From Nitrosopumilus sp. (GTDB lineage Archaea > Thermoproteota > Nitrososphaeria > Nitrososphaerales > Nitrosopumilaceae), in the NCBI GenBank assembly GCA_965223425.1, contig OZ245003.1, positions 288,001 through 352,000 of the forward strand: DNA of 64,000 nucleotides, in the 5' to 3' direction. Position 1 is the first letter of the stretch. Each line of letters opens with the position of its first letter. Positions 29,055 to 64,000 of the stretch are shown piece by piece. The notes under the pieces are model-generated. The model was given only the letters and a program-made list of their open reading frames with translations. It was not told the origin of the DNA and searched no databases. The translations under genes were made by a program, and so were the position numbers.

Positions 29055-30020
29055 TTGGCATTGGGATATTTTCGTGATAAGGCTAAAGAATGGCTTTATA
29101 GACATCCGCGGTTACACGCGTTCTACAGCCAAAACAAGTTCCGAATAATCACATCGTCCATGAGGGGGTTGCCAGACTTTGTTATAATCGGAGCGATGAA
29201 ATCTGGAACTACTTCGCTATACGATTTTGTTGTCAGACACCCTGCCATTACACCTGCTTCCAGAAAGGAGGTGCAGTATTTTTCCTTTTGGCATGATCTT
29301 GGCAAGCTCTGGTATCGTTCTAATTTTCCGACCGATCTGTCAAGGCGTCGCTTTTACAAAAAAACTGGTCAGAATCTCCTCAGTGGAGAAGCTAGCCCAG
29401 ACTATCTTTTTCACCCGGAGGTTCCAGGTAGGATGAAGGAGCTCCTGCCTGACGTGAAACTGATCGTTATTTTGCGCAACCCGGTTGATCGCGCATATTC
29501 ACACTACCACCACAGACTATCTAGGAAGATGTTAACGCAGTCGTTTGAGAAGATCCTCGGATTGGAGGCACATGACCAAACAGAGGAAACGGAGGATCAC
29601 GACTCCAGATTTCGCTTCCGGCATCTGCGGGACAGTTCGTACCCATCTCGGCAGGTGAGAGGAGAGGGGGGGGGGGGTAGCCTGCAAAGAGGCTCCAAAA
29701 TCCGGCATCTGCGGGACAGTTCGTACCTATCTCGGGGCATCTATGCCGATCAATTGGAACGCTGGTTCAAATACTACGACATAGAACAGTTTTTGATTTT
29801 GACCGTGGAGGACTTTCATGAAAATCCCCAGCAGACGCTAGATCAAGTTTTTGACTTCTTGGGGGTGACCCCATTTCGGGCAAAGAGCCTAAAGAATCTT
29901 AACGTCGGGAACTATAAGAAGATGAGCGAGGATGTGCGTAAGGTTCTCATCGAATATTATATGCCCTGCAACGCAAGGTTGTACAAACTATTGCAGCAAA
30001 GGTTTGATTGGGATAAGTAA
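29055..30020 (+). CDS. PAPS-dependent sulfotransferase, copy 2 (in-frame internal duplication)
   Basis: GAMKSGTTSLY, GEASPDY, LRNPVDRAYSHY; RHLRDSSY occurs twice. Confidence 0.92.
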   Translation: MALGYFRDKAKEWLYRHPRLHAFYSQNKFRIITSSMRGLPDFVIIGAMKSGTTSLYDFVVRHPAITPASRKEVQYFSFWHDLGKLWYRSNFPTDLSRRRFYKKTGQNLLSGEASPDYLFHPEVPGRMKELLPDVKLIVILRNPVDRAYSHYHHRLSRKMLTQSFEKILGLEAHDQTEETEDHDSRFRFRHLRDSSYPSRQVRGEGGGGSLQRGSKIRHLRDSSYLSRGIYADQLERWFKYYDIEQFLILTVEDFHENPQQTLDQVFDFLGVTPFRAKSLKNLNVGNYKKMSEDVRKVLIEYYMPCNARLYKLLQQRFDWDK

Positions 30021-30067
30021 TGGCGCCATGCAGGATTCGGCCCGTTGATCTTGCCCAAACATTATTA

Positions 30068-30333
30068 GAACTTGTGCGTATTTGATCAAAAAATAAGACG
30101 CGCGGCAACACGGGCTTTGCCACGTGTCAAATCCGCGTAGCATACATGCCCAAATACGGACCTGCAGACCATACGCCATGCCAAAGCACGACCAGGCCGC
30201 GCTGCTTGATAAGATCAGGGAGCTCGAGAAGACCAACCGCGAGTACAGGGAGGCCAACCGTTCCTTGGATGAGCGGGCCGGGGCGCGGCATGCCGTCCTA
30301 AACCGGAAGTTTTGGGCAAATGAGCATAATCTC
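30068..30333 (+). mobile_element. internally deleted non-autonomous IS (~266 bp); related left end at 31381-31410
   Basis: Imperfect 24-bp IR gaacttgtgcgtatttgatcaaaa / ttttgggcaaatgagcataatctc, TA on both sides; short coiled-coil ORF inside. Confidence 0.6.
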
Positions 30334-30455
30334 TAGTACACGCCGATCGTCTGTGCAGGCAGACTCTCAAAAGATCAACCCCGAACCACGAACGCAAGTG
30401 GTAGCCTCGGGTCTACGGGGATACAATACAAATAACACCTGCATGTCAATACGAC

Positions 30456-31355
30456 ATGGGATATTTCAGGAGTGTTGCGGGCAGGTGGCTTCGCCGACAT
30501 AAGCGTGTTCACGAGCACTACAGACGAAACGTGTTCCGGAGAATGACTGCACGTTGGAGGGTACTTCCTGATTTTGTCATCATTGGGGCACAAAAGTCCG
30601 GAACCACCTCGCTGTATAACTTTCTCATCAGACATCCAGCAATTGCTGCTGCCTCTGAAAAGGAGATCGAATATTTTTCCACACGACACAAACATGGTGA
30701 GTTGTGGTATCGTTCTAATTTTCCAATCAACATGTCAGGACATTGCTCTTTCAAAAAAAAAAAACAAACAAACAAACCGAAGCGCCTCACGGGAGAAGCC
30801 AGTCCGAAGTATCTTTTTTACCCCACGGTTCCAGACCGGATGAAGAGTCTTTTGCCGGATGTAAAACTGATTGCGATCCTGCGCAACCCCGTGGATCGCG
30901 CATATTCCCACTATCATCACTACGTGAGAGACAATATCGAGTCGCTGTCGTTTGAGGATGCCATCAGTACAGAGGAAGAACGGTGTGCTGGGGGGGGGGA
31001 GCAGTTGATCAAGGATCCGGATTCTGATCCCTGCCACTACAGACGCTATTCATATCTTGCCCGAGGTCGCTACGCCGAGCAGCTAGAAAACTGGTTCAGG
31101 TACTACGGCAGGGAGCAGTTTTTGATCCTGACCACAGAGGAATTTTACGAGGATCCACAACGGATTTTGGATCAAGCATCTGCTTTCTTGGGACTGCCCC
31201 CTCACCCATTTCAGGCAATGGGTCTAAGGAATCTCAACGTTGGAGACTACAAAGAGATGAGTGCCGATACGCGTAAATTCCTAGTCGAGTACTTCAAGTC
31301 TCACAACGAAAGGCTGGCCAAGCTGTTACGATGCAGTTTTGATTGGGACAGGTAA
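30456..31355 (+). CDS. PAPS-dependent sulfotransferase, copy 3
   Basis: GAQKSGTTSLY, GEASPKY, LRNPVDRAYSHY, RGRYAEQL. Confidence 0.92.
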   Translation: MGYFRSVAGRWLRRHKRVHEHYRRNVFRRMTARWRVLPDFVIIGAQKSGTTSLYNFLIRHPAIAAASEKEIEYFSTRHKHGELWYRSNFPINMSGHCSFKKKKQTNKPKRLTGEASPKYLFYPTVPDRMKSLLPDVKLIAILRNPVDRAYSHYHHYVRDNIESLSFEDAISTEEERCAGGGEQLIKDPDSDPCHYRRYSYLARGRYAEQLENWFRYYGREQFLILTTEEFYEDPQRILDQASAFLGLPPHPFQAMGLRNLNVGDYKEMSADTRKFLVEYFKSHNERLAKLLRCSFDWDR

Positions 31356-31437
31356 ATGAGCCAGCAACGTCACTGCAATAGATCTTGTGCGTATTTGATC
31401 AAAAAATAAGGTATGAGTTTAGGTAGCCACTATCCAT

Positions 31438-31536
31438 AGACCTTATGCGTAATCGATCAAACTAATATTGCTAGATGATTCTTGTCTTAGCAAACCAATT
31501 TGATTTTGAATTTTTAGTCGATTGCGCATAAGGTCT
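31438..31536. mobile_element. 99-bp MITE with ISL2-like ends
   Basis: IR agaccttatgcgtaatcga / tcgattgcgcataaggtct; 3-bp TSD CAT. Confidence 0.85.
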
Positions 31537-32136
31537 CATGTACCATCTTTATAAGAATTCCCAACATTTTTCATCCTGACAGGTACGGCACAAGCTAGAA
31601 TTATTTCCAGACCGCAAAGGCCCAAGACAGCAAAGAAGCAAACAGTTATCCATCCGAGGCAACCACGGAGGCAATCCCTCAGCATCATTCTCCATTCTTT
31701 TATCAGGCTATAATGCAATTACAAGGCGAGGCATACAAACTACTACTGGGTCTGTCCCTCAACGAGTTCATCGCAATTGACATCCTGACTGTAATTTGTA
31801 ACAAACGCCCTTCTCTCCTTGAGCATCCGGTAAATGACTCGCAGCAGCTTTGAGGCAGCTGCTGCTACTACTGATGCCCGTCCCTTGCCTCTCTTCTTTG
31901 CAAGCCTCTTGTAGAATATCAAAATGTCAGACTCGGGTGCATACCTTACATGTGACAAAACACACTCTGTCAGAACCTGTCCTGTGGCGTACCGTGTTGT
32001 GCCGATAATTCACCAGATCCCTGTTGTTCATGTTCTGCAATGAGGGTACGTGACATGATATTGTGTATCCTCTCCTGTGCATGTCTGCCAGAATTCTGGC
32101 ATCTGCCTTGCCAGTCTTCTTTTTGGACTCTGCTAT

Positions 32137-33204
32137 AGACCCTATCCGTTATTAACATAATTTTACCATTTTCCAGATATTTGTTCGCAACTAGATCCAA
32201 AACAGGCAAAATGCCATGCATGTCATGTTAAACCACAAAAAGCTGGCAAAAAAACCAAAATTATTCCTGTCCATGACGGGAGTTACCCCCGGGCAGTTTT
32301 ATGATCTGTGCCCGGAGATAGAGTCACAGTACAAGATAACGGAGGAAAGACGCCTCTCCAGGAATAACAGAATCCGAGACATCGGCGCAGGGCGCAGGTT
32401 CAAACACTGCCGCAGGGACAGAATCCTGATGGCACTGATCCACTACAGGACATACGTCACACAGGGTCTCCTGAGCCTGCTTTTTGACCTGAGCCAGTCA
32501 AATGTCAGCACCGGCATACGATACATGGAGCCTGCCATAAAATCTGCACTGTCACTGCCTGACAAAAAGCTTGCAGAGACCAGACAGATATCAGACATTC
32601 GGGAGCTGGCATGCGCCTTTCCTGGGCTGCACGCAGTCATTGACGCATCAGAGCAGCAGATTCAAAGGCCCAAGAACAAGTCCATGAGAAAAACACACTA
32701 TTCGGGCAAAAAGAAGATGCATACGGTCAAGACACAGTACGTTGTAAACGCAGACGGCATGATTATGCACAGGACGCCGCACTCGCCTGGAAGCAGGCAT
32801 GACTATTCTGTCTTCAAGTCAAAGTGCCCAAAACTTTCAAGAGATCTGAAAATCCTTGTGGATCTTGGATATCAGGGGATACGGAAGGACTATCCGGAGC
32901 TTGACGTGTTGATCCCGTACAAGAAGCCAAGGGGCGGCAAGCTTGATGATGCGCAGAAGGAATTCAACCGGGAGCTGTCCAGAGCAAGGGTACCGGTGAG
33001 CATGTCATCTCAAGGATCAAGAAATTCGGCATAATGAGGGACAAGTTTAGGAACAGACTGTGCAGGTATGACTGCATCAATGCCATAATCTGCGGCCTGA
33101 TCAACTACAAGCTGAAGACGCGCGATTTTGTTGTGATACCATGACGTAACAAGGAATCAGTTTGGTGAAACGTCAGGTTTTGTTAGTAATTACAGATCAG
33201 GTCT
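32137..33204 (+). mobile_element. IS5/ISL2-like element (HTH + DDE_Tnp_4), transposase 32216-33144 with a frameshift near 32998
   Basis: Ends agacc... / ...ggtct; 3-bp TSD TAT (empty site tgctatgag in sister IS110 copies); IDASEQ, YSGKKKMHTVK, HD, DLGYQG. Confidence 0.9.
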
Positions 33205-33631
33205 TATGAGTTGGTGGTGTACGGGTTTGATAGCGACGCGTCCATGCTTAGCTCGTCTCTTATCTGAAAGAACGGCGCCTTCCAACAGACGAGGATTCCA
33301 TTACAAGCTTAGAGTCCTTATGTAAATAGCTGATGTTGTACCTGATGTCTTTTGGTGTGTTTGCTATCTTTTTGTTGAGCAGTTCCTCGCCGTTTTCATC
33401 CATGACAGACATGTGATGGTCTTCTTGTGGACACCCAGGCCGACAAAGACAGCTGACATGCATATCCTCGGATCTGGGGTTGTGTGTTTGTTTGCATTTC
33501 TGATCTTTGCAGTACTGGCTCTGTTTTCTGAACCAGAACCATTCTTATCATCTAATTTCCTTGATCGAGGCACATCAGATTACTATTTGTAGACAAATTA
33601 TGTTATTAACAATGCTACATTATAAAAAAAA

Positions 33632-35128
33632 TTGAGTAGTATACGAGTAACGTATTCTGGCCTTATCGGGTTTGTAGTTGCTATGAGTGGAATTTTATTC
33701 GGACTGGCTTTTACAATTATTGTTACCAGGCAGTTAGAACCACAGGAGTTTGGCATTTGGGCAATAATTGGAAGAATGCTGGGGTACTCCATTATTACTG
33801 AGGTAATAATTTCTTATTGGTCTGTAAGACAAATTGCACGAAATGAGCCTATTGGAAAAACATCTATTATATCCAGCTCGCTTTTCTCTGTCGGTTCTAT
33901 TCCGATTTACGTAATTTGCGTATACTTGTTCTCAGATGTGAACGATGCGTTCTTTAGCTCTATGTTACTTGCTACGATTTTAATTCCCGTAATGTTCATC
34001 CGTGGCACCCTACATAGTATAAATTTTGGTCATATGCCACATGCTACAAGCATCGGAATAGCTGTTTTTCAACTTCTAAAAATTCCCTGTAGCCTTGGAT
34101 TGGTTTTTTTCCTAGACCTAGGACTGAATGGCGTAATTATCGCCATTTTCATTGCATACTTGGGTGAGATCGCAGTTCAACTTAGATATGCAATACCAAA
34201 GCTATCCGTCTCTCTGAACTTTTCATATTTAAAAAACTGGATTAAACAAAGCTGGATACCAATGTATGCAACAATATCAAATGTTATGGCAATCCTAGAT
34301 GTGATAATTTTTACAATAATTACCGGTTCCATTATTGGCGTTGCATATTATGCGGCAGCTGCAGTGGTGGCCAATCTTGTTGCTCGTACAGGATCAATCC
34401 ATAAGGCACTTTATCCAAAATTGTTAGCTAGTGGAAGTCGTGAACATATCAATGAAAATTTTATATTGATACTATATTTTGCAATACCCCTATTGTTCAT
34501 TACGATTATTTTCCCTAAACACATCTTGTTTGTACTAAACTCCGAATATGCCCATATGGGAATGGCAGTCACGTTCTTGTCCCTTCATGCATTTTTTTAC
34601 ATGATTACCACATTTTTCAATCGGACTCTGCTTGGAATAGAGGATGTAGACGTTGAGAAAAGACCTAGTCCGTCACAGTTGTTCAGAAGCAAATTATTCC
34701 TAATCTCTAGCATATCTAATATACGTCATGTACTTTACATAGGAACTTTGGCTACACTCCTATATGCCTTTCAAGATCTATCAGATACAGAACTAGTCAA
34801 CATGTGGTCAATGATTGCATTAGCGTTTTCAATTCCGTTTTTGATTTACTCGGGTATTTTAGTAAGAAGATATGCCATACTCCCAACACCCTATGTGCCA
34901 ATTCTAAAATATTTGATAGGCGGAATAAGCATAGCAATTACGTTTGTATTTACTAATGAGTATGTTGTGGTGTTTGAATCTAATATTTATTCATATTTGC
35001 CCAATCTAATATTGGAGCTAATGCTTTGCTGTGTCGTGTATGTGGGAGTTACATATGCAATTGACCGCAAAACTAGGAACCTCTTCAAACTGGTCGCCTT
35101 GGAAACTCTTTCCCGGTGGAAGAAATGA
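33632..35128 (+). CDS. polysaccharide flippase / MOP superfamily exporter
   Basis: 498 aa, many TM helices, IIVTRQLEPQEFGIW, GVAYYAAA, LYPKLL. Confidence 0.85.
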   Translation: MSSIRVTYSGLIGFVVAMSGILFGLAFTIIVTRQLEPQEFGIWAIIGRMLGYSIITEVIISYWSVRQIARNEPIGKTSIISSSLFSVGSIPIYVICVYLFSDVNDAFFSSMLLATILIPVMFIRGTLHSINFGHMPHATSIGIAVFQLLKIPCSLGLVFFLDLGLNGVIIAIFIAYLGEIAVQLRYAIPKLSVSLNFSYLKNWIKQSWIPMYATISNVMAILDVIIFTIITGSIIGVAYYAAAAVVANLVARTGSIHKALYPKLLASGSREHINENFILILYFAIPLLFITIIFPKHILFVLNSEYAHMGMAVTFLSLHAFFYMITTFFNRTLLGIEDVDVEKRPSPSQLFRSKLFLISSISNIRHVLYIGTLATLLYAFQDLSDTELVNMWSMIALAFSIPFLIYSGILVRRYAILPTPYVPILKYLIGGISIAITFVFTNEYVVVFESNIYSYLPNLILELMLCCVVYVGVTYAIDRKTRNLFKLVALETLSRWKK

Positions 35129-35145
35129 CAGTAGACTTTATGCAT

Positions 35146-35362
35146 CCATGTGAATTCTTTATAAACATTCCTTGCAAACTGTCACAGTGTTGAATGGCTC
35201 ACGTTAGGGTTGATCCAAATTCCAAAAGATGAGCGGACAAGTATCCATTCGGGATCTTACTCCCAGTGCCATTCTTCATCCATTTGTTAGATTGAACCGC
35301 AGTTAATTGCCCGAGGTGTAACCTCAACGCATAAAACGCAGACAGACTCTAACCGTAATAAA
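35146..35362 (-). ncRNA. putative bridge/seek RNA of the IS110 element
   Basis: Hairpins gagg..cctc and ggga..tccc plus aatgga/atggata motifs shared with the non-coding region at 31537-31790; two 9-mers match the target IR. Confidence 0.65.
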
Positions 35363-36372
35363 TTATTTTTGGGCAACATACTCTTTTTTCTCCTTTAGCA
35401 TCCAATATATTACACGTATCAGCTTTGATGCCGCTGCAACCTTTGCCTTTGATCTTCCTCTCTTTTTTGCAAGACGGTTGTAGAATCTTGTAATGTCGCT
35501 GTCAGGCGCGTGTCTTGTATGGGTCTGGATTGCCTCCACTGCTATCCATCGCAGCATACGGCTTCCCCTCTTTGTTATCCTGCCGTGGTGTACCGTCTCA
35601 GCAGAGTTTCTCACGGACGGAACAATGCCCGCGTATGCACACAGTTTGTGCGAGTCTGAAAATCTTTTGACATTGCCAATCTCCGAATATATTGCAAGCG
35701 CAGAATAATACCCTATTCCAGGAACGGTGGTCAGCAGACTGATGTTCTGATCCCTTTTGACTATCCGGCGGGTTTTTACATCCATTTTGTAGATCTGCCC
35801 GTCTAGAAACGCTATGGAATCAAGGAACGAATCTATGCGATAGTTCCTCAGTTTTCTCAATTCCCTTACGTGGCCGGATCCGAATCCGCCGGATTTTGTC
35901 TTGATTCCGTTTTGCAAGAGTATCCCATGTATGGAATTCTTCATGACTGTTCTTGTCTTGACCAGTTTGTTTCTGTGTCTTGCAAGGTGTCTTAGCTCTA
36001 CTATGTCATTGTCGGGCACGTGGCACTGTGCAATGTAGCCCCCTCTCAATAGATTTGCCAGCGCCTGCGCGTCCACCTTGTCTGTTTTTTTGAGCGACGT
36101 TGCAATTACCTTGGTGCTAAACGGATTGGATACGATTACATTTAATCCCAGCGTATCTGTGAGAAACCGGTATAGGCCGTACCAGACAGATGATGATTCC
36201 AGCACGTATTTTGAGTCCCTTGGGATCATGGCAAATGTTTTCCTGATCTCCGCATGATTGTTCTTTATCTTCATGTTGGACTGCAGTGTCCCGCCGCCAT
36301 CCAGTACTGCAACTTGAATCGTCTCCTTGTGTACGTCTAGTCCAACATACATGATCTTGTCAGAACCACGGG
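35146..36372 (-). mobile_element. IS110/IS1111-type element (type 1), apparently intact; transposase 35363-36352
   Basis: VGLDVHK, LESS, KKTDKVDA (DEDD RuvC), VPGIG, YAGIVPSVRNS, GRITKRG; 20-bp left end, ~215-bp downstream non-coding region, 1-nt core T at both junctions. Confidence 0.92.
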
Positions 36373-36563
36373 TAATCTGTTTCTTTGTTTTTTTCTTTTT
36401 AAAGGACTTGATGCCAGTGTCATCTAAAATTCCTTTTCTCCGAGCCTTCACATATGGTTAATTGAATCATAAAAATTTTTCCGAAAGATTTAGATCCATT
36501 TTGATCGCCGCAACAGGTAATGGAATCTTCAGAACAGACTATACGCAGGCTGCAAAGGGAGCT

Positions 36564-36714
36564 CAAGCAAAAGGACACAGCAATCAGGCAAAAGGACACA
36601 GCAATCAAGCAGAACAACAGAGCAATCAAGCAGAACAACAGAGCAATCAAGCAGAACAACAGAGCAATCAAGCAGAACAACAGAGCAATCAAGCAAAAGG
36701 ACGCAGCAATCAGC
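36564..36714 (+). repeat. 21-bp coding tandem repeat (heptads KQKDTAI / KQNNRAI) in the transposase N-terminus
   Basis: About 7 units of (a)gcaatcaagcagaacaacag-type sequence; in-frame coiled coil. Confidence 0.9.
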
Positions 36715-37987
36715 AGGCGCGAGAAGACGATTGGCCTGCTGCGCGAGCAGCAGCTGCTGCGCGAGGACAGCCTGTGGGCCGTTACAGATGCAGGCCGCCC
36801 TGATACGGACACGTCGCTGCTGCACATCAGGGAGGTGATCCACGGCATACTGCACAACAGCGCAAAGCTTGCAGGGATTACCTCGTATGACCTTGACCAG
36901 TTTGACTACATCTGCAATGACTTTGTGGTAGAGTCAAAGAGGCACAACAAAGACGCGCCGCTCTTTTCAGAGGACGGGACACCGGATCCCGGAAACCGCT
37001 GCCTGCCTGGCCGCAGGTCCGTCCTGCTGCTTGCGCTGTTCCGCAAGCGCTCAAACGTGACGCAGGACGCTCTGGGGCGCTGTTTGATGTTGACCAGTCC
37101 ACCGTGTGCAGGTACCTCCGGTTCGCAGATTCCGTGCTGGCAAAGATTCTGCCTACTGCAGACAGGATGACCCGTCTGGTAAAAAAGGCCGAGACATCAG
37201 GGCAGCTAGAGCAGCTAATGCCGGACAGAACCATCATAATTGACGGCACCGAGGTGGTGCCAAGGCAGCGTCCGCAGGACAGGGATAAAAGAAAAAACAC
37301 GTACTCTGGCAAAAAGAAGCGCTTTACGATTAACACCGCCATAACAACAAACAGGGCAGGCCTGATACCTGCAGCAGGCAGGTCCTTTGAGGGCGGGACG
37401 CACGACCTTACCATGATAAGAGAGGATCCGACAGACTTTGGCAGGCGGTCTAAATCCATGTACAAAAAGGACACTCCGGAAAAGGACAGGATACGGTGCT
37501 TGCAGACAAGGGGTACCAGGGATGCCAATCACTACACGGGAATGGCACTTGAGATGCCGGAAAAAAAGAGGCCGCGGACGGAGCTGACGCAGCAGCAAAA
37601 GGACTCGAACAAAAGGATCAGCGCCAAGAGGGTAAAGGCGGGGCACGCCATCGGAAGAATAAAGCAGTGGGCGAGGATGACAGACCCGTATGACGGCACG
37701 GTAGAGGAGTTTCGCGAGGAGCTGGCTGTGTGTACCGGCCTTGCAAACTTTCAACTGCTGTGGGATGCAAAGAAAAAGCGGCCGTCACTTGGTTATTGAC
37801 GGCACAGCACAGGGTGCATGAGGCACTGCAAGAGTGCGCACGGATTTCTAATTTCTGCGAATTTACACGGCCTTTTGCGTCAAAATTAAATAATTTCCTG
37901 GACTGGCTTTGTGTGTCTTGGTAATGTATGCTGCAGAAAAAATTTGACGGGTCAATTATGCATAAAGTCTCTTATCCTTGGATTAGT

Positions 37988-38589
37988 GTAATCTTATGTG
38001 CCTCGATCAAGGAAATTAGATGATGATGATAAGAACAGTTCTGGTTCAAAAAGATCCACTGTTAAAAGGATCAGAAATGCAAACAAACACACTAGCTGTG
38101 CTGGGCCCACGAGATACGGCAGGTAAAGCACGTAGCGCAAAAATATGATATTGCAGGGGACGTACGGCGGCGGCAACAGTACCACGAGGATCTCAAATGG
38201 GTATTTGCAGAGGCAAAACAGCTTGCTCAGTGTGCTGCGCCATCGTCCCGCCTGTGGTACTCTATGAACTGTGCGCTACATGACATACTGGACAGGTACC
38301 GCAATACCGGAGACGGCTTGCTACAAAAGATCATAGAGAGGATGGAGCGGCATCTTCCGTGCATGTTTGCATTTCTGGAATATTCCGGTGTTGATCCGAC
38401 TAACAACGCATCTGAAAGGGCGCTGCGATATCTGGTGGTGTTCCGGAAGATAAGCGGGCAGACCAAGAGCGGCGTTGTTGCCATGAAGCGTCTTGGAGAT
38501 TTTGTGACATGTGTTCTGACATGGAAGGCTCATGGCAAATGTATTGCACATGAGGTTGCCAGACTGATATAGGGGGTAGGTGAAGTTAC
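37988..38589 (+). mobile_element. internally deleted IS66 derivative
   Basis: GTAA...TTAC ends; left segment joined directly to LCWAH...PTNNASERALR...RKISG; no TSD seen. Confidence 0.75.
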
Positions 38590-38639
38590 AATACGAGTAC
38601 TATGACTGATATAAGGGGTAGGTGAAGTCATACGCAGAG

Positions 38640-39623
38640 ATGGTGCAAAAATTCAGCACAGTAATACCCTTTCGTGACACGCCGATAGAGCGCGAGTTCG
38701 CGAAGACATCAATCCCGTCAGCTATACGATTGAATCCCGACGAGTTGGTTATAGGTGTAGACGAACCTGCCGACGAGTCGTTTCTAGACTACATACGAGA
38801 TTTGTGCAACAAAGAGTCATATGCGAACTTCAAGATCGTGCGTGTGGAGCATTCTGATCAGTGGAGTTTTCAACTAGCCAATGTAATATGGCACTGCTAT
38901 AATGCCTGTAAAAACGACAAGATACTGGCAACGGATATAGACAATGTACTGAGAAATACGGTGCTAAAAGGGTACGACTTGATCGGTTCGAACAACAATG
39001 GCGTAGTATCTTTTACCAAAAAAACGTTGATCAGGAATGTGAGCGATCTAATAAGATATGTTTTTTATCGCTTGTCGGTACGCAGGCGATCCGATGTTTT
39101 TTCAGGTATTTACTGGGTGTACAAGCCGTATTATTTTGAGGATGTAGACATTGAGCAGTTCAAATCCATCCGCAACGGCATAGACGCCTACATGAGAGAC
39201 CAGATCACGGAAATGGGACGGCATTGCATCGTAACGCTAAAAGAGATCGGAGTGGAATCCTTGGATTACCAAAACGAAGATTATCCTTGGAGGCAGTTTC
39301 AAAAAGGCATATGGTTTTACGCAAACTATGAAAAGCATGGCAAACTGGAAATCGAACGGGAGCAGGATAGGCCTTTCATCTACAAATATGTGCACAAAAT
39401 CCTTGACAATCATCCTGGCTTGTATATACGGCTTATCAGCTATATGCACCAGCACCCATACTTCAAAAAAGGTTATTTTTGGGCCAAAAAAAACCCAACA
39501 CACGAATCTGTCCTAGTTGCAGGCAAAACATCTAGGAGCGGTTGGGGCTATCTGGGCTCCAAATACATCAAAGACATCTATTATTGGGAAAGACATGGTA
39601 GACATGGAACCGGGTTTGGCTAG
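38640..39623 (+). CDS. putative GT-A fold glycosyltransferase (paralog group 1)
   Basis: STVIPFRD, VIGVD, TDID (DxD), GIYWVYK, PWRQFQKGIW. Confidence 0.7.
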   Translation: MVQKFSTVIPFRDTPIEREFAKTSIPSAIRLNPDELVIGVDEPADESFLDYIRDLCNKESYANFKIVRVEHSDQWSFQLANVIWHCYNACKNDKILATDIDNVLRNTVLKGYDLIGSNNNGVVSFTKKTLIRNVSDLIRYVFYRLSVRRRSDVFSGIYWVYKPYYFEDVDIEQFKSIRNGIDAYMRDQITEMGRHCIVTLKEIGVESLDYQNEDYPWRQFQKGIWFYANYEKHGKLEIEREQDRPFIYKYVHKILDNHPGLYIRLISYMHQHPYFKKGYFWAKKNPTHESVLVAGKTSRSGWGYLGSKYIKDIYYWERHGRHGTGFG

Positions 39624-40101
39624 AATAGTTGGTAAATTCAACGACATACACGAGACTGCTAAGATTTCGGACTCTGCACGCATATGCGGATGGTGCTATA
39701 TTGGATCAGATGTGGAGATTGGCAACGATACCGTGATTAGTAACTTTTGCGAGATAAACTCAGGAGTCAAGATAGGCAACAGGACTCTGATCAATTCACA
39801 CTGTCATCTAAATAGCGACACGCAGATAGGGGACGATACAATACTAGGCAGTGGCGTGCTAACGGCAGATGAAAAATACATGACAGCAAAAACGCGAAAC
39901 GTTGAAAAAAAACCCTGCAAGATAGGCAGTAATTGCCGTATAGGCCAGAACTCGAACCTGATATCCACAGTTCTGGGCGATCACGTGTCCATCGGTGCTG
40001 GATCCACAGTCCTTGAACCGGAGATCAAGCCGTATGAGGTGTGGGTTGGTACCCCGGCAAGATTCTTGCGCAAGATGACCGAGTACGAACTTGGAATATA
40101 G
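39616..40101 (+). CDS. hexapeptide-repeat (left-handed beta-helix) acyltransferase
   Basis: Repeated IG-x4 hexapeptides, IGAGSTV, VWVGTPARF; start uncertain (39595-39616). Confidence 0.88.
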   Translation: MARIVGKFNDIHETAKISDSARICGWCYIGSDVEIGNDTVISNFCEINSGVKIGNRTLINSHCHLNSDTQIGDDTILGSGVLTADEKYMTAKTRNVEKKPCKIGSNCRIGQNSNLISTVLGDHVSIGAGSTVLEPEIKPYEVWVGTPARFLRKMTEYELGI

Positions 40102-40322
40102 ATGTGCGTTCGTTTATACGCATGAATAATGCGTATAATAATTCAGAGGATTATCGGAAAATGCTTCAAAATATCTGATTTTGCTGTATCTATCCGTACA
40201 TATGCTAAGAAAATCAAGAATGATTCTATGCAGTATTTGTGTATTCTGTCATGGAAATAATTAGTAGAAATTGTTCTATGTCATACATTGCAAAGTACAT
40301 TTGGATGTAAGATTGAGACACT

Positions 40323-42293
40323 AGACTTTATGCATAATTGACCCGTCAAATTTTTTCTGCAGCATACATTACCAAGACACACAAAGCCAGTCCAGGAAAT
40401 TATTTAATTTTGATGCAAAAGATCATTGTAAATTCGCAGAAATTAGAAATCCGTGCGCACTCTTGCGATGCGTCATCATCATCATCATGCACCCAGTATC
40501 GTACCGTCAATAACCAAGTGACGGCCGCTTTTTCTTTGCATCCCACAGCAGTTGAAAGTTTGCAAGGCCGGTACACACAGCCAGCTCCTCGCGAAACTCC
40601 TCTACCGTGCCGTCATACGGGTCTGTCATCCTCGCCCACTGCTTTATTCTTCCGATGGCGTGCCCCGCCTTTACCCTCTTGGCGCTGATCCTTTTGTTCG
40701 AGTCCTTTTGCTGCTGCGTCAGCTCCGTCCGCGGCCTCTTTTTTTCCGTAGTTAGCACATTAAATAATTGAATATTTTCACAGGCAGGATCTCCTTTCTG
40801 GCAAACAGCTTGCGTACTGACTGCTCCATCTCATCTAGCGTGCCAAACACTTTTGCAGACAGTACCCGCTTTATCACCCTCCACTGCATCTCAATGGGAT
40901 TAAGCTCCGGCGTGTACGGCAGCAGGTACTCCAGAACTATCTCGCCGTTGTATCTTTCCAGAAACTCCCTTGCCTTTTTGGATTTGTGATATGACGCATT
41001 GTCTACAAACAGCAGCACCTTGCCGAATCTTTTGTGAACCCGTTCCAAAAAGCTGCAAAAGCTGTCGCTGTTTGACTTTTCATAAAACATAAAGTAAAAT
41101 GCGTTTGCCGCCAAAGCTCCAAAGATGTATCTTCTTTCGCGTGACAAAACAGAGGGGGATGTGGCGCGCTTGCCGCGCCTTCTCCACCCGTAGCCGGGCC
41201 TGTTTGATGCCTTTTGAATCGAGGATGCATCGCCGGCCAGTACGGTGTATCCCTGCGCCGACTTTTCTGCAACGAGTTTTTTTGCCCGCTCCTGAAACTC
41301 TTTTTGCTTTCTTTTTGAGGCTGATCTTGGGTTTTTTGGACGCGCCTTGCTCCACGAAAAGCCCATCTCCCTGACCAGCTGCAGCGCGCCTGTCTTGCTG
41401 TACTGCACGCCGAACTTTTTCTTGATGTGCAGCCTTACCAGGTTGGAATCCCACAGGCTGCTCTCAAAGCCGCATGACTCCGGGCCCGCATCCAGGTCTG
41501 CTGCAAGCTGTCTTGCCTGCGGCCCGCCTATCAGGTGCTTTCGTCCCCTGCCGCTGCGCTCGAACCTTGCGCGTATTCCCTCGTCCTGTGCGCGGTTGAG
41601 CCATGCAGATATGGTGGACTTGGGCCTTCCCAGCATTCTTCCGATCCTGTCTAGCGGCACGCCGTCCTTGCGCTGCATGTACGCAAGCAGCCTGTCGCGC
41701 CTTCTGGGATCGGTCTCTTTTTTGTATGCCCTTTTGAGGTCTGCAACGCTGGTGTTTGGCAGAAATTTTGCCCCCCTTGCAACCTGTCTCTTTTTTTGTT
41801 TGTACATGCAGTGTGTGCGGTATGGCCGGTCTTGGATCTTTTGGCCAAAAATAATTGTCAAAATGATTCAGTTTTTTTATGTGCATACTACGGCATCTCA
41901 AGTGCCATTCCCGTGTAGTGATTGGCATCCCTGGTACCCCTTGTCTGCAAGCACCGTATCCTGTCCTTTTCCGGAGTGTCCTTTTTGTACATGGATTTAG
42001 ACCGCCTGCCAAAGTCTGTCGGATCCTCTCTTATCATGGTAAGGTCGTGCGTCCCGCCCTCAAAGGACCTGCCTGCTGCAGGTATCAGGCCTGCCCTGTT
42101 TGTTGTTATGGCGGTGTTAATCGTAAAGCGCTTCTTTTTGCCAGAGTACGTGTTTTTTCTTTTATCCCTGTCCTGCGGACGCTGCCTTGGCACCACCTCG
42201 GTGCCGTCAATTATGATGGTTCTGTCCGGCATTAGCTGCTCTAGCTGCCCTGATGTCTCGGCCTTTTTTACCAGACGGGTCATCCTGTCTGCA
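40323..42293 (-). mobile_element. partial ISL2-like element (copy of 35133-37970), interrupted by IS630-B and truncated by IS630-A
   Basis: Reverse complement of ~37156-37970, including the right IR agactttatgcataattg. Confidence 0.9.
40749..41890 (-). mobile_element. IS630-family element type B, single ORF 40752-41861
   Basis: IR tagttagcacat / gtgcatacta; VDNASYH, YTPELNPIE; CG duplicated. Confidence 0.93.
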
Positions 42294-43424
42294 TAGTGAA
42301 TTGGATTAACAATCGCTCACAAAACAGACAACATTATTCAACCACAAGATCTAGATCCCAGTGTATGGCAGAATCCGCATGAAATACAACGATTCCATAG
42401 TAATACCGGCAGACAAAAGATTCCTGTCCGGCGTCTCCAGTGCGCGCCTGCGCAGCATGCAAAAAAAGGAGACAGATCCCAGGGCCGCAGCAAGGCTGCT
42501 GGCATATGCCATGCGCAAGGAGGGCATGTCCATACGCCGGATATGCATGGCCCTCAACTGGCCATACTCTACAGTACGGGGCTGGCTTGTGCGCGCCGCA
42601 CAGCTTGGCACCGACGGCAGATACGACATCAAAAATGAAGGCGCGCCAAACAAGCTCGATCCGGAACAGACAAAGCAGCTGCGCGCAGACCTGCTGGCAG
42701 GCCCGCGCAGTTGCGGCTTTGAGTCCGGAGTGTGGACGGCACCGCTGCTGGCCGCACACATCAGAAAAAAGTTCGGCGTGCAGTATGCCACTGTCAGCAT
42801 ATATGACATACTGCACAGGATGGGCTTTTCGTGCAGAAAGCCGCGTCCAAAGCACCCAAGTCAGCCTCAGAATCAGAGAAAAAAGAGTTTAAAAAAAAGC
42901 AGGGGAGGTAATCCGGAGCCATCCAGGCCATACGGTGGTTACAGTTGACGAGGCCTCCTTTATCATTGGGTGGAATACCAAGAACGGGTGGTACCCCAAG
43001 GGCAGGCCCGTCACCACTCCAGTCAGCCTGTCGCGCAAAAGGTTCTACTCGTTTGGGGCACTACGACGGAGGCTTTGACTGCAGGTTCTATGCCAAGGCC
43101 GACAGCTACAGCTTTGTGGACATGCTCGGACACCTGCATCTCAAGCACGGCAAGATCATCGTCTTTCTTGATAACGCATCATACCACAAGTCAAAGATGG
43201 TCAATGATTTTGTCGACTCGTATGACGGCGACATAGTCCTTGTTTACTTGCCCGTGTACACCCCGGAGCTGAATACCACGGAGGGGCAGTGGAGGCTGTT
43301 AAGAAGGGCCACTGCAAACGTGATGTATGAAAGTACAAAGGTGATGAAGGAATCCATATGGACAATGCTGGATAGACGTGAGGTCAGGATAACAAGGATG
43401 AGCGGTTATTTATCCTAGTCACTA
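42294..43424 (+). mobile_element. IS630-family element type A
   Basis: IR tagtgaattgga / tcctagtcacta; orfA 42361-42948; orfB carries an extra small deletion near 43060; flanks come from two different truncated IS. Confidence 0.92.
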
Positions 43425-44234
43425 CGTTATGTGTCCATAGTGCACGGACTCGCCGGAGGATCTCACAGACGGAACAACGCCGACATAAGAGCACAGCTTG
43501 TGCGAGTTGACGAACCTTCCTATGCCGTCTATTGTACATGCAATGACCAGTGCAGAGTATGCCCCGACACCCGGAACGGTCTGCAGCAGAGTTGCATCCT
43601 CGTTCTCCTTTGCTGCCTGGCGCACCCTTGCATCTGACTGGAGTATCTTGTCGTTTATGCTGTTTATCGTGTCCAGGTACGAGTCTATCCTATAGTCGCT
43701 TATCTTTCGAACCTGCGCAATCCATGGCCCGCAAAACGGCTTGCCGTCAGGCCGAATCGATCTCTGCAGCAGTATGCCGTGTATGGAGTTCTTCAGTCCT
43801 GTCCTGTGGCGTACCAGGTTGTGCCGGTAATTCACCAGGTCCCTGTTGTTCATGTTCTGCAACGTGGGTACGTGGCACGATACTATGTATCCTCCCCTGT
43901 GCATGTCTGCCAGAATTCTGGCATCCACCTTGTCAGTCTTCTTTTTGGACTCTGCTATGAGCTTGGTGGTGTACGGGTTTGACAGCGACACGTCCATGCT
44001 TAGCTCGTCTCTTGTCTGAAAGAACGGCGCCTTCCAGACAGACGAGGATTCCATCACAAGCTTAGAGTCCCTGTGCAAACAGCCTATGTTGTACCTGATG
44101 TCTTCGGCTGTGTTTGCTATCTCTTTGTTGAGCAGTTCCTCGCCGTTTTCATCCATGACTGACATCTGGATGGTCTTCTTGTGGACATCCAGGCCGACAA
44201 AGACAGCTGACATGCATATCCTCGGATCTGGGGT
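43425..44234 (-). mobile_element. IS110-family element type 2, 3'-truncated by IS630-A
   Basis: MSAVFVGLDVHKK, MESS, KKTDKVDA, VPGVG, VPSVRSSG...YGHIT then abrupt end. Confidence 0.9.
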
Positions 44235-50426: not shown

Positions 50427-50843
50427 CAGATTGTGTCTATAATTCACCAGGTCCCTGTTCTCCATGTTCTGTGATGAGGGTATGTGACATGATATTATGT
50501 ATCCTCCCCTGTGCATGTCTGCCAGAATTCTGGCATCCACCTTGTCAGTCTTCTTTTTGGATTCTGCTATGAGCTTGGTTGTGTATGGGTTTGATAGCGA
50601 CACGTCCATGCTTAGCTCGTCTCTTATCTGAAAGAACGGTGCCTTCCAACAGATGAGGATTCCATCACAAGCTTCGAGTCCTTGTGTAGGCAGCCGATGT
50701 TGTACCTGATGTCTTTTGGTGTGTTTGCTATCTTTTTGTTGAGCAGTTCCTCACCGTTTTTATCCGTAACAGACACCTGATGGTCTTCTTGTGGACATCC
50801 AGGCCGACAAAGCCAGCTGACATGCATATACCTGGATTAGGAC
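50427..50843 (-). mobile_element. IS110-family type 2 variant, 5' fragment
   Basis: GLDVHKK, VMESS, KKTDKVDARILAD; frameshifted; cut by IS630-B. Confidence 0.85.
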
Positions 50844-63607: not shown

Positions 63608-64000
63608 AGACTTTATGCATAATTGACCCGTCAAATTTTTTCTGCAGCATACATTACCAAGACACACAAAGCCAGTCCAGGAAATTATTTAATTTTGATG
63701 CAAAAGATCATTGTAAATTCGCAGAAATTAGAAATCCGTGCGCACTCTTGCAGTGCCTCATGCACCCTGTGCTGTGCCGTCAATAACCAAGTGACGGCCG
63801 CTTTTTCTTTGCATCCCACAGCAGTTGAAAGTTTGCAAGGCCGGTACACACAGCCAGCTCCTCGCGAAACTCCTCTACCGTGCCGTCATACGGGTCTGTC
63901 ATCCTCGCCCACTGCTTTATTCTTCCGATGGCGTGCCCCGCCTTTACCCTCTTGGCGCTGATCCTTTTGTTCGAGTCCTTTTGCTGCTGCGTCAGCTCCG
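63608..64000 (-). mobile_element. right end of a third ISL2-like copy (runs off window)
   Basis: Reverse complement of ~37578-37970. Confidence 0.9.

What the first reader, a model, noticed from the sequence alone, without database searches (positions are those of the whole stretch)
35133..36380. IS110/IS1111-type element with a readable RNA guide aimed at another transposon's terminal inverted repeat
Seen: the element splits the left IR of an ISL2-like IS (agactttatgcaT | Taatctg). Its downstream non-coding region, read in transposase orientation, has TTTATGCGT (35335-35327), a GAGG-N5-CCTC hairpin, then GGGCAATTA (35312-35304). These match opposite strands on either side of the core in the host's right IR ggtcaatt-A-tgcataaa, each at 8/9. 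The match to the left-IR half actually used (cagatta) is weaker. A second hairpin is followed by ATGGA, matching the element's own right end catgg-A. Established: IS110/IS1111 recombinases use bridge/seek RNAs with target and donor loops; IS4321/IS5075 target Tn21 IRs. Inference: an apparently intact archaeal programmable recombinase that parasitises an IS family. Three unoccupied right-IR targets remain in this window (37950-37970, 40323, 63608).
Basis: partly seen in the sequence, partly recalled or inferred. Interest (0 to 1): 0.8.

Follow-up and report, generated by a model that had tools for sequence, protein, structure and literature searches.

The report
Archaeal RNA-guided jumping gene targeting transposon ends
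This is an apparently intact IS1111-type insertion sequence in an ammonia-oxidising-type archaeon that carries its own guide ("bridge/seek") RNA aimed at the terminal repeat of another insertion sequence: a good new example of a mechanism already described in bacteria.

Summary
The element is an IS110-family, IS1111-type insertion sequence on the minus strand at about 35145-36460, not 35133-36380. It sits in the left terminal inverted repeat (IR) of an IS5-family IS, at CAAT^TA^TGCAT.

The genome holds three full copies and one right-end remnant. All four lie at the same IR position, and at least one is in a right IR. 31 perfect targets remain empty, three of them in the window.

The 3' non-coding region encodes a ~132-nt RNA (35224-35355, minus strand) with two internal loops:
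- **Loop 1:** UUUAUGCGU and GGGCAAUUA match opposite strands of the IR on either side of a TA core.
- **Loop 2:** AUGGAUA(C) and AUGGC match the element's own right and left ends.

In relatives, mostly Nitrosopumilaceae, 16 of 27 base pairs show compensatory changes. The guide segments change together with each element's own flanks (0 of 20,000 permutations reach the observed match).

A TATA-like box lies 13 nt from the right end. The transposase frame is open from a GTG inside the left inverted repeat in 25 of 26 relatives. Together they suggest an archaeal promoter formed at the circle junction.

No RNA data were available. Verdict: new member of a known kind.

The parts
35145..36460 (-). 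Whole IS1111-type element, about 1316 bp when the left TA is counted with the element. It reads 5'-TAACCAT-ATGTGAA...TTCACAT-GGA-3' in transposase orientation. The ends are uncertain by 2 nt.
   Evidence: Comparison with 15 empty left IRs. Junctions of copies A, B, C and remnant D. Contig loose ends at 36459.
35363..36451 (-). Transposase ORF of 362 aa starting at a GTG inside the left subterminal repeat. The conserved DEDD core begins at the ATG at 36352 (329 aa).
   Evidence: ORF list. Pfam PF01548 and PF02371. NF033542 at 240.5 bits. D6, E52, D91, D94 and S250 align with the IS621 catalytic residues. The frame is open from the GTG in 25 of 26 distinct relatives, against 2 and 1 of 25 in the other two frames.
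36447..36460 (-). Left end: terminal extension TAACCAT (36460-36454) and subterminal repeat ATGTGAA (36453-36447). The repeat contains the GTG start codon (36451-36449).
35224..35355 (-). Predicted bridge/seek RNA: five helices and two internal loops.
   Evidence: Covariance model R1 scores 110.4 bits, E 2.3e-23. RNAalifold and pair counts.
35327..35335 (-). Target loop, 5' guide UUUAUGCGU. It is complementary to the top strand A-(C/T)GCATAAA to the right of the core.
   Evidence: It matches 9 of 9 to the flank of copy B, and 8 of 9 plus a G:T to the flanks of copy C and remnant D.
35313..35325 (-). Distal hairpin of the target loop (GAGG-UUACA-CCUC), closed by a U:G pair at 35326/35312.
   Evidence: helix 3; 3 of 5 pairs have changes on both sides.
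35304..35312 (-). Target loop, 3' guide GGGCAAUUA. It has the same sense as the top strand GGTCAAT-TA to the left of the core, so it pairs with the bottom strand.
   Evidence: It matches 8 of 9 to right IRs and 6 of 9 to left IRs.
35268..35272 (-). Donor loop, 5' segment AUGGC. It is complementary to left-end nt ACCAT at 4 of 5.
   Evidence: AUGG goes with ACCAT, AUAG with ACTAT, ACGG with ACCGT and CGAU with ATCGG across relatives.
35241..35248 (-). Donor loop, 3' segment AUGGAUAC. It has the same sense as the right end ATGGA plus core TA plus the first flank base.
   Evidence: the segment follows the right-end variants GGATA, AGATA, GGGTA, AGGTA and AGAAG in relatives.
35158..35165 (-). TATA-like box TTTATAAA preceded by a purine-rich GGAAT, 13 nt from the right end and pointing outward.
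   Evidence: a TATA-like word starts 18-20 nt from the end of CACATGG in 32 of 38 distinct right ends. The background rate is 0.4% of equivalent windows.
35145..35154 (-). Right end: subterminal repeat TTCACAT (35154-35148) and extension GGA (35147-35145).
35133..35144 (+). Outer part of the host IS left IR (AGACTTTATGCA). This copy lacks the TA found at this junction in copy C and remnant D; copy B has it too, next to a T-to-C change in its flank.
   Evidence: An 'AT put in behind 35143' appears in contigs of other copies.
36461..37970 (+). Rest of the host IS5-family IS: inner part of the left IR, a split DDE_Tnp_4 transposase (36520-37170 and 37104-37799), and the right IR at 37950-37970.
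37953..37970 (+). Unoccupied perfect target (right-IR type) in the same host IS.
40323..40340 (-). Unoccupied perfect target (right-IR type).
63608..63625 (-). Unoccupied perfect target (right-IR type).

Best explanation
This is an IS1111-type member of the IS110 family in a Nitrosopumilaceae-like archaeon.

**Shown by comparison**
- The element carries a DEDD/Ser recombinase gene.
- Downstream of that gene lies a ~132-nt structured RNA with two internal loops.
- The first loop holds two guides that match opposite strands of the target on either side of a TA core: GGTCAAT-TA-(T/C)GCATAAA, the terminal IR of an IS5-family IS.
- The second loop matches the element's own right end (ATGGA-TA) and left end (ACCAT).

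**Inferred, by analogy with ISEc11/ISPa11 seekRNAs and the IS621 bridge RNA**
- The element excises as a circle that joins ...CACATGGA to TA-ACCATATGTG....
- The RNA holds the circle junction and the IR together in a recombinase tetramer.
- Strand exchange at the TA core inserts the element in one orientation at CAAT^TA^TGCAT. This splits the host IS's IR and probably disables it.

**Further inference, about 50% likely**
- Full-length transposase is made mainly from the circle.
- A BRE/TATA-like box 13 nt from the right end would then lie 22 nt upstream of the GTG start codon in the left repeat. That is the usual archaeal distance from TATA box to transcription start (recalled from general knowledge), and it would give a leaderless mRNA.
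For: **Protein**
- PF01548 E 2.8e-24 and PF02371 E 2.8e-22.
- NF033542 scores 240.5 bits against a cut-off of 140.
- The catalytic D, E, D, D and S align with IS621 and ISCro4.

**Boundaries and target**
- 15 empty left IRs, junctions of the 3 full copies and 1 remnant, and loose ends at 36459.
- 4 of 4 insertion events are at the same IR position. Two are in left IRs and one in a right IR. The inner half of the remnant's site is lost.

**Independent insertions**
- The copies differ at 4-9 of 1313 nt.
- The host IS bodies of copies A and B are only 95.3% identical.

**RNA**
- RNAalifold on a MAFFT alignment of 25 relatives gives 27 pairs, 16 of them with compensatory changes.
- Shuffles give 6.9 +/- 1.6 such pairs, with 0 of 500 reaching 16. 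Slid controls give 3-6.
- The covariance model finds the RNA downstream of the transposase in 48 places in 97 loci and 12 places in the own genome.

**Guides against flanks**
- 5' guide against right flank: cognate mean 7.1 of 9, non-cognate 4.47 (30 distinct guides). 0 of 20,000 permutations reach the observed sum.
- 3' guide against left flank: 3.84 against 1.42 (19 guides), 0 of 20,000.
- The donor-loop segments follow the variants of the right and left ends.

**Guide order and architecture**
- The top-strand complement comes first. The long non-coding region is downstream. The terminal extensions are 7 nt on the left and 3 nt on the right. All of this is as described for IS1111 in PMC11187229 (sections 4 and 9 read).

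**Promoter idea**
-.
Against: - No RNA run holds the region, so expression of the RNA is not shown.
- No circle-junction or excision contig was seen (contigs only).
- 31 perfect targets remain empty and only 3 are filled, so activity is low or regulated.
- The window copy lacks 2 bp (TA) at its right junction compared with copy C and remnant D, which may impair it.
- The 3' target guide matches the left IR, used twice, at only 6 of 9.
- The motif after the catalytic Ser is S-A, not S-G as in relatives.
- The subterminal repeat is only 7 bp perfect, against the 11-13 bp usual for IS1111.
- The single-sequence fold is unremarkable (z -1.65).
- Rfam has no matching family.
- Not every relative fits. 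6 of 30 cognate 5' guides score only 4-5 of 9. One locus (L040) has guides that do not match its flanks and was left out of the tests as an apparent chimera.
- The covariance-model alignment used to cut out the guide columns is fitted to the model.
Confidence: 0.88

Rival explanations
1. The three copies arose because the host IS transposed while carrying a passenger. The shared position in the IR would then reflect one chance insertion that was copied, not RNA-guided targeting.
For: Copies A and B lie in left IRs with identical inner flanks. The host IS is abundant in the genome.
Against: Copy C is in a right IR, and remnant D is at a fourth locus. The host IS bodies of A and B are 95.3% identical, while the passengers differ at only 4 of 1313 nt. 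An IS with a split IR is unlikely to move. Relatives with other guides sit in other sequences that match those guides.
Confidence: 0.03
2. The matches to the IR in the non-coding region are a captured fragment of the target or are recognised by the protein, and no functional guide RNA is made. On this view target choice would be protein-DNA recognition, as in classical site-specific recombinases.
For: No RNA evidence was obtainable. The single-sequence fold is not exceptional.
Against: The two matches are on opposite strands, separated by a conserved hairpin. They change in step with the flanks in relatives whose proteins stay similar. The helices keep pairing through 16 compensatory changes. 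The homologous bacterial systems have been shown experimentally to use such RNAs (PMC11187229 sections 9 and 10; PMC11208160 passages).
Confidence: 0.05
3. The family is real, but this lineage is now inactive in this genome. The copies would be relics that no longer move.
For: 31 empty perfect targets. The right junction of the window copy lacks 2 bp, and one copy is reduced to a 35-bp remnant. S-A replaces S-G after the catalytic Ser.
Against: There are three copies with intact 362-aa ORFs, an identical RNA region and only 4-9 differences in 1313 nt. This suggests recent movement.
Confidence: 0.2

Closest known systems
ISEc11 / ISPa11 / ISKpn4 (IS1111 family) with seekRNA (Siddiquee et al. 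2024, PMC11187229)
   Same: DEDD transposase, long non-coding region downstream of the transposase gene, and subterminal inverted repeats with asymmetric terminal extensions (7 nt left, 3 nt right). Two short guide segments overlap at the insertion point, and the top-strand complement lies 5' of the bottom-strand match. Natural retargeting by guide replacement among relatives is seen here too.
   Different: The host is an archaeon. The protein is only distantly related (IS4321 transposase about 20% identity). The subterminal repeat is shorter (7 bp perfect). The RNA is not matched by any Rfam model. The ORF extends into the left repeat, and a TATA-type box lies in the right end instead of the bacterial -35/-10 junction promoter. 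None of this has been tested experimentally.
IS621 bridge RNA system (Durrant et al. 2024, PMC11208160; Hiraizumi et al. 2024, PMC11208158)
   Same: One RNA has a target-binding and a donor-binding internal loop. Each loop reads both strands around a 2-nt core. Guide positions running past the core into the partner DNA resemble the 'handshake' guides.
   Different: IS621 belongs to the IS110 group, where the RNA is upstream of the gene, the guide order is reversed and the core is CT. Sequence similarity to this protein is weak (E 5e-8, C-terminal half mostly).
IS4321 / IS5075 (IS1111 family), which target the terminal IRs of Tn21-family transposons (Partridge & Hall 2003; seen only as a reference in PMC11208160)
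   Same: Insertion at one fixed position and orientation inside the terminal inverted repeat of another transposable element.
   Different: The target here is the IR of an IS5-family IS in an archaeon. The protein shares about 20% identity.
ISHvo10 (Haloferax volcanii pHV4), the nearest named IS
   Same: It gave the best match among named elements: 37.4% identity over 99% of the protein. It is archaeal. PMC11187229 section 6 places it among the diverged relatives of IS1111.
   Different: ISHvo10 has long non-coding regions on both sides. Covariance model R1 does not find the RNA there: the best hit is 6.9 bits, a lone hairpin upstream of the gene.

Membership tests
IS110 family (DEDD transposases) | N-terminal DEDD_Tnp_IS110 domain plus C-terminal Transposase_20 domain | tested here: met
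   PF01548 E 2.8e-24 and PF02371 E 2.8e-22. NF033542 scores 240.5 bits against a cut-off of 140.
IS110 family (DEDD transposases) | Catalytic D, E, D, D and the C-terminal Ser | tested here: met
   D6, E52, D91, D94 and S250 (numbering of the 329-aa form) align with the corresponding residues of IS621 and ISCro4. The residue after the Ser is A, not G.
IS1111 group | The longer non-coding region lies downstream of the transposase gene | tested here: met
   217 nt lie downstream (35146-35362). Upstream there are 106 nt before the ATG, or 9 nt if the ORF starts at the GTG.
IS1111 group | Subterminal inverted repeats, usually 11-13 bp | tested here: inconclusive
   ATGTGAA / TTCACAT is 7 bp perfect, or CCAT..GTGAA with a 2-nt gap. 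The repeat is present but shorter than usual.
IS1111 group | Asymmetric terminal extensions, 7 bp left and 3 bp right (PMC11187229 section 4) | tested here: met
   TAACCAT on the left and GGA on the right when the TA is assigned to the element. The filled site in copy C then equals the empty site plus the element.
IS1111 group | C-terminal motif GL-P----S(t)G | tested here: inconclusive
   The window protein has G-I-V-P-S-V-R-N-S-A. Relatives have GLVPSVRSSG (consensus).
IS1111 group | Transposase branches with IS1111 relatives in a phylogeny | not tested
   No tree with reference IS1111 and IS110 proteins was built. The nearest named element is ISHvo10 at 37% identity; IS4321 is at 20%.
Bridge RNA / seekRNA | Conserved structured RNA in the non-coding region | tested here: met
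   16 of 27 pairs have compensatory changes, against 6.9 +/- 1.6 in shuffles (0 of 500) and 3-6 in slid controls.
Bridge RNA / seekRNA | Two segments complementary to opposite strands of the target, overlapping at the insertion point, with the top-strand complement first in IS1111 | tested here: met
   UUUAUGCGU and GGGCAAUUA overlap at the A of the TA core. Family-wide tests give 0 of 20,000 permutations for each guide.
Bridge RNA / seekRNA | A second loop complementary to the donor (element ends) | tested here: met
   The 3' segment follows 5 or more right-end variants, and the 5' segment follows 4 left-end variants. The 5' segment is short (4-5 nt) and there are exceptions (L057, family P).
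Bridge RNA / seekRNA | The RNA is expressed, binds the transposase and is needed for movement | not testable with these tools
   No RNA holder was listed. This needs wet-lab work.
IR-targeting IS (IS4321/IS5075-like behaviour) | All insertions at one position and orientation in another transposon's terminal IR | tested here: met
   4 of 4 events. All 58 genome sites within 2 mismatches of the 18-nt target look like IRs of this IS or its variants.

The most novel reading that the evidence does not exclude
A clade of archaeal IS1111-like elements (Nitrosopumilaceae, and apparently also Bathyarchaeia, Hadarchaeota and Thermoplasmata) has rebuilt the bacterial 'junction promoter' in archaeal form. 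A BRE/TATA box in the right end and a GTG start codon inside the left repeat come together only in the excised circle. This would give a leaderless mRNA for a transposase with a 15-78-residue basic N-terminal extension, so expression would be gated by circularisation. The clade also seems to specialise as an RNA-guided parasite of the termini of other mobile elements, disabling them. The targets seen are IS5-family IRs, MITE-like units and even the left end of a sibling IS1111-type element.
Probability: 0.4. Interest if true: 0.6.

Novelty: new member of a known kind. Interest (0 to 1): 0.45.

Why it matters
Bridge/seek RNA recombinases are being developed as programmable genome-editing tools, and every experimentally characterised system so far is bacterial.

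This locus gives a compact, apparently intact archaeal system with:
- a fully readable target loop and donor loop;
- natural retargeting series among close relatives, which show which RNA positions are programmable;
- a defined natural target that is present 31 times unoccupied in the same genome.

It also shows how an element of bacterial type may have adapted its expression signals to archaeal transcription, with a TATA box in one end and a start codon in the other. That idea can be tested directly by mapping transcription start sites.

For genome biology, it documents RNA-guided 'transposon-on-transposon' parasitism in ammonia-oxidising archaea with many insertion sequences.

Tried and rejected
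- **Rfam.** The search of 30000-42000 at E up to 1 gave 0 matches, so no curated family covers this RNA.
- **RNA expression.** No RNA holder was listed. The 6 runs that hold the stretch, from 3 studies, are kept as contigs and are not on record as RNA.
- **Laid contigs.** Contigs of 4 runs showed no joint, no circle junction and no excised site at this locus. Contigs drop rare variants, so this says nothing either way. The call was useful only for the boundary (loose ends at 36459) and for the ~2.9x depth of the element relative to the unique flank.
- **ISHvo10.** Model R1 run with filters off on the ISHvo10 locus found only a 6.9-bit hairpin, so the RNA model does not extend to the nearest named IS.
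- **Single-sequence folding.** It gave z = -1.65, which is not informative alone.
- **Composite transposition.** I considered and rejected that the three copies are one insertion carried along by the host IS (see rivals).
- **Copy B's flank.** I considered that its C (TA-CGCAT) came from the RNA or the donor. Rejected: the same C variant occurs in uninterrupted IRs at C1:2353394 and C1:1059944.
- **'ISL2-like'.** Only IS5 family / DDE_Tnp_4 could be supported (PF13359; NF033581 at 60 bits, below its cut-off of 140 because the gene is split). 3-bp direct repeats flank 3 of about 10 copies that I inspected by eye. The subgroup was not tested.

**Rows dropped before the permutation tests**
- L049:1-57, a partial hit.
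- L064:2470-2554, a weak antisense hit.
- L128, a degenerate copy whose right end was mis-detected.
- L040, whose guides do not match its flanks. It looks like a chimera of two element types, and dropping it favours my reading.
- For the 3' guide test also L039 (left end mis-detected) and L027 (guide region carries an insertion).
- Guides were de-duplicated by exact sequence. Related guides remain, and relatedness among the elements is not otherwise corrected.

**Literature**
- Searches.
- I found no paper describing bridge/seek RNAs of Nitrosopumilaceae elements (terms IS110 + Nitrosopumilus: 3 papers, none relevant by listing or by the passages of PMC13343696) or an archaeal IS junction promoter (1 paper, on E. 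coli).
- Supplements were closed. Supplementary Table 5 of PMC11208160 and the supplementary figures of PMC11187229 may already list predicted RNAs for archaeal IS such as ISHvo10.
Full report
**What is there**

The minus strand of 35363-36352 encodes a 329-aa protein with the two Pfam domains of IS110-family transposases: PF01548 (E 2.8e-24) and PF02371 (E 2.8e-22). NCBIfam NF033542, 'IS110 family RNA-guided transposase', scores 240.5 bits against a cut-off of 140. The only solved relatives are the ISCro4 and IS621 recombinases, at E 3e-8 and 5e-8. In those alignments D6, E52, D91, D94 and S250 sit opposite the catalytic residues. The genome is archaeal: after clan competition its SSU and LSU rRNAs match the archaeal Rfam models best. 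The nearest transposase relatives are in records titled Nitrosopumilus or Nitrosopumilaceae MAGs, at 43-62% identity.

**Boundaries**

That right-hand boundary is wrong.
- BLAST of the downstream DNA showed that most copies of the host IS align only from about 81-87 nt further in.
- 15 uninterrupted left IRs read AGACTTTATGCATAATTGAATCAT. The host IR therefore resumes at TAATTGAATCAT, 36459 onward.
- Contigs of empty IS copies leave the window sequence exactly at 36459 (loose ends).

In transposase orientation the filled site of copy C is GGGTCAAT-TA-ACCATATGTGAAGG ... GAATTCACATGGA-TA-TGCATAAAGTCT, and the empty site is CAAT-TA-TGCAT. If the left TA is counted with the element, the ends are TAACCAT + ATGTGAA ... 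TTCACAT + GGA. That is a 7-bp subterminal repeat with extensions of 7 nt on the left and 3 nt on the right, the asymmetry reported for IS1111 elements (PMC11187229, section 4). In the window the element is 35145-36460. Its right junction reads GGA-TGCAT and lacks the TA present in copy C and remnant D. Copy B reads GGA-TA-CGCAT.

**Copies and targets**

The genome has three full copies and one 35-bp right-end remnant that still abuts the outer half of an IR.
- Copies A (the window) and B are in left IRs.
- Copy C is in the right IR of another host IS copy.
- All four lie at the same position and in the same orientation relative to the IR.
- The copies differ at 4, 5 and 9 of 1313 nt, while the host IS bodies of A and B are only 95.3% identical. 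These are therefore separate insertions, not one insertion copied along with its host.

The 18-nt target CAATTATGCATAAAGTCT occurs 31 times uninterrupted and perfect: 17 of left-IR type and 14 of right-IR type. The host IS carries a split DDE_Tnp_4 / IS5-family transposase. I could not test the 'ISL2' subgroup.

**The RNA**

UUUAUGCGU is at 35335-35327, the hairpin GAGG-UUACA-CCUC follows, and GGGCAAUUA is at 35312-35304. After a second hairpin (GGGA-GUAAGA-UCCC) comes GAAUGGAUAC.

I collected relatives from related genomes and from public genome contigs, and aligned 25 downstream regions with MAFFT.
- RNAalifold predicts five helices that frame two internal loops. 16 of 27 pairs have compensatory changes.
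- On the same alignment, which is independent of the structure, shuffles give 6.9 +/- 1.6 such pairs, with 0 of 500 reaching 16. Sliding the partners by 1-3 columns gives 3-6. 96.2% of cells are paired, against 31-47% when slid.
- A covariance model built from the alignment scores the window RNA at 110.4 bits.
- It gives 12 hits in the own genome and 48 hits in 97 loci.
- All strong hits lie just downstream of an archaeal transposase homologue. None is in a bacterial locus except one 1.3-kb contig binned as Campylobacterales.
- Rfam has nothing for this RNA.

**Do the loops read DNA?**

Using the model alignment, I cut out for each hit the four loop segments and the sequences flanking the element ends.
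- **First loop, 5' segment against the right flank.** The reverse complement of the segment matches the element's own right flank at a mean of 7.1 of 9. It matches other elements' flanks at 4.47 of 9. This covers 30 distinct guides. 8 cognate pairs score 9 of 9, while only 8 of 870 non-cognate pairs reach 8. No permutation of 20,000 reaches the observed sum.
- **First loop, 3' segment against the left flank.** It matches the left flank upstream of the shared TA at 3.84 against 1.42 (19 guides), again 0 of 20,000.
- **Close pairs.** L012 has left flank CTGATA and guide CUGAUA. L017 has CTGGTA and CUGGUA.
- **Second loop, 3' segment.** It follows the right-end variants (ATGGATA, ATAGATA, ATGGGTA, AAGGTA, ATAGGTA, ATAGAAG) and often runs 1-3 nt into the right flank. 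This resembles the handshake guides of IS621 (PMC11208158, passages).
- **Second loop, 5' segment.** It follows the left-end variants: ACCAT with AUGG, ACTAT with AUAG, ACCGT with ACGG, and ATCGG with CGAU.

For the window element the 5' target guide matches copy B's flank at 9 of 9, and the flanks of copy C and remnant D at 8 of 9 with a G:T. The 3' target guide matches right IRs at 8 of 9 and left IRs at 6 of 9.

The order of the guides, with the top-strand complement first and the two overlapping at the insertion point, is the order reported for IS1111 seekRNAs and the reverse of IS110-type elements (PMC11187229, sections 4 and 9).

The fit is not universal. Six cognate 5' guides score only 4-5 of 9, and one locus (L040) does not fit at all. 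The dropped rows are listed under Tried and rejected.

**Mechanism**

The following are shown by comparison:
- the element's limits;
- its fixed target and orientation;
- an RNA with a conserved structure;
- loop segments that change together with the target flanks and with the element ends.

The following are inferred from the homologous bacterial systems:
- excision to a circle that joins ...CACATGGA to TA-ACCATATG...;
- an RNA-bridged synapse of the circle junction with the IR;
- strand exchange at the TA core.

No RNA data exist for this organism in the runs offered, and contigs showed no junction.

**An addition: expression signals**

- In 32 of 38 distinct right ends, a TATA-like word preceded by a purine-rich stretch starts 18-20 nt from the end of the CACATGG repeat. 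In the window it is GGAAT-G-TTTATAAA at 35158-35165. Such words occupy only 0.4% of equivalent windows elsewhere in the elements. The word list was my own ad hoc choice.
- The transposase frame is open all the way up to a GTG inside the left repeat (36451-36449) in 25 of 26 distinct relatives. The other two frames are open in 2 and 1 of 25.
- The extension of 15-78 residues is basic and has conserved motifs (R-N/K-S/L-D-G/S; K-K-Q-I-R/T). The real ORF in the window is therefore probably 35363-36451 (362 aa), as listed.
- In a circle, the 3' end of the TATA box would lie 22 nt upstream of that GTG. As I recall, this is the usual archaeal spacing between TATA box and transcription start.
- I therefore propose an archaeal counterpart of the bacterial circle-junction promoter mentioned in PMC11187229 section 4, giving a leaderless transposase mRNA only after excision. 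This is inference, and I rate it at about 50%.

**Comparison with known systems, and novelty**

- The nearest named IS is ISHvo10 of Haloferax volcanii, at 37% identity. Its RNA is not found by my model.
- IS4321, the classic IR-targeting IS1111 member, shares about 20% identity.
- Archaeal IS110-family recombinases are known in bulk: 662 in the bioRxiv preprint 10.1101/2024.06.21.599552 (passages).
- Bridge RNAs were predicted for most ISfinder IS1111 entries (PMC11208160, passages).
- I found no description of this Nitrosopumilaceae clade or of its RNA.

I file it as a new member of a known kind. The junction-promoter arrangement and the clade's habit of hitting the ends of other mobile elements are the parts most worth following up.

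Noticed in passing
Own genome C1:1500644-1501621(+), 1502218-1503195(-), 1158883-1159862, 1202834-1203813, 2373774-2374750, 1804405-1806517; window 43422-44204(-) and RNA at window 31629-31791(-): A second IS1111-type family ('P', about 50% aa identity) has the same RNA architecture but different guides. Its 5' guide UGAACUCGU is the reverse complement of its right flank A-CGAGTTCA. It inserts at G-TA-(C/T)GAGTTCAC, the terminal repeat of a 79-bp MITE-like unit flanked by 8-bp direct repeats. 4 of the 5 units in the genome are occupied, one of them at both ends by two P copies facing each other. One solo unit lies at C1:2012428.
   Followed up: partly
L043, L044, L045, L049, L053, L062, L063 (Nitrosopumilus MAG records): Two further relatives with different guides insert 2-3 nt apart in the terminal repeat (TTGATACATACC) of another MITE-like unit of about 95 bp. 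Targeting the ends of other mobile elements looks like a habit of the clade.
   Followed up: partly
L041:2508-2642 and L061:1114-1248 with their flanks: One element type carries guides (UUUUCACAU and AAACUAUA) that match the left end (TAACTATA^TGTGAATAA) of a sibling IS1111-type element. It is found inserted there, so one bridge-RNA element parasitises another.
   Followed up: partly
Right junctions: window 35143-35146; L012, L014, L043 versus L045 and L049: The junction between the right end and the flank varies by 1-2 nt among copies of the same element (GGA-TA-TGCAT, GGA-TGCAT, AGA-TT-GATTC, AGA-T-GATTC). I have no explanation. It could reflect imprecise events, core mismatches between donor and target, or later deletions.
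   Followed up: no
Window 36560-36700 (+): The N-terminal part of the host IS ORF contains a tandem 21-nt repeat encoding (AIKQNNR)n. Copy number differs among IS copies, which shows as staggered BLAST hits.
   Followed up: no
Window 31800-32136, 33284-33590, 37985-38100, 50427-50811: Fragments of P-type transposase genes and left ends (GTAATCTTATGTGCC...) lie scattered between IS5-family copies. The window is a dense patch of nested and decayed insertion sequences.
   Followed up: no
Genome-wide, e.g. C1:27569, 107997, 371202: Nine sites read AGTTTGAT-CGATTATGCATAAGGTCT. This looks like the IR of a related but distinct IS whose terminal repeat differs at 2 of 18 positions from the target. None is occupied.
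   Followed up: no
L040: An element whose left end and transposase are of one type while its RNA and right end are of another. Its guides do not match its flanks. It may be a recombinant between two co-resident IS1111-type elements.
   Followed up: no
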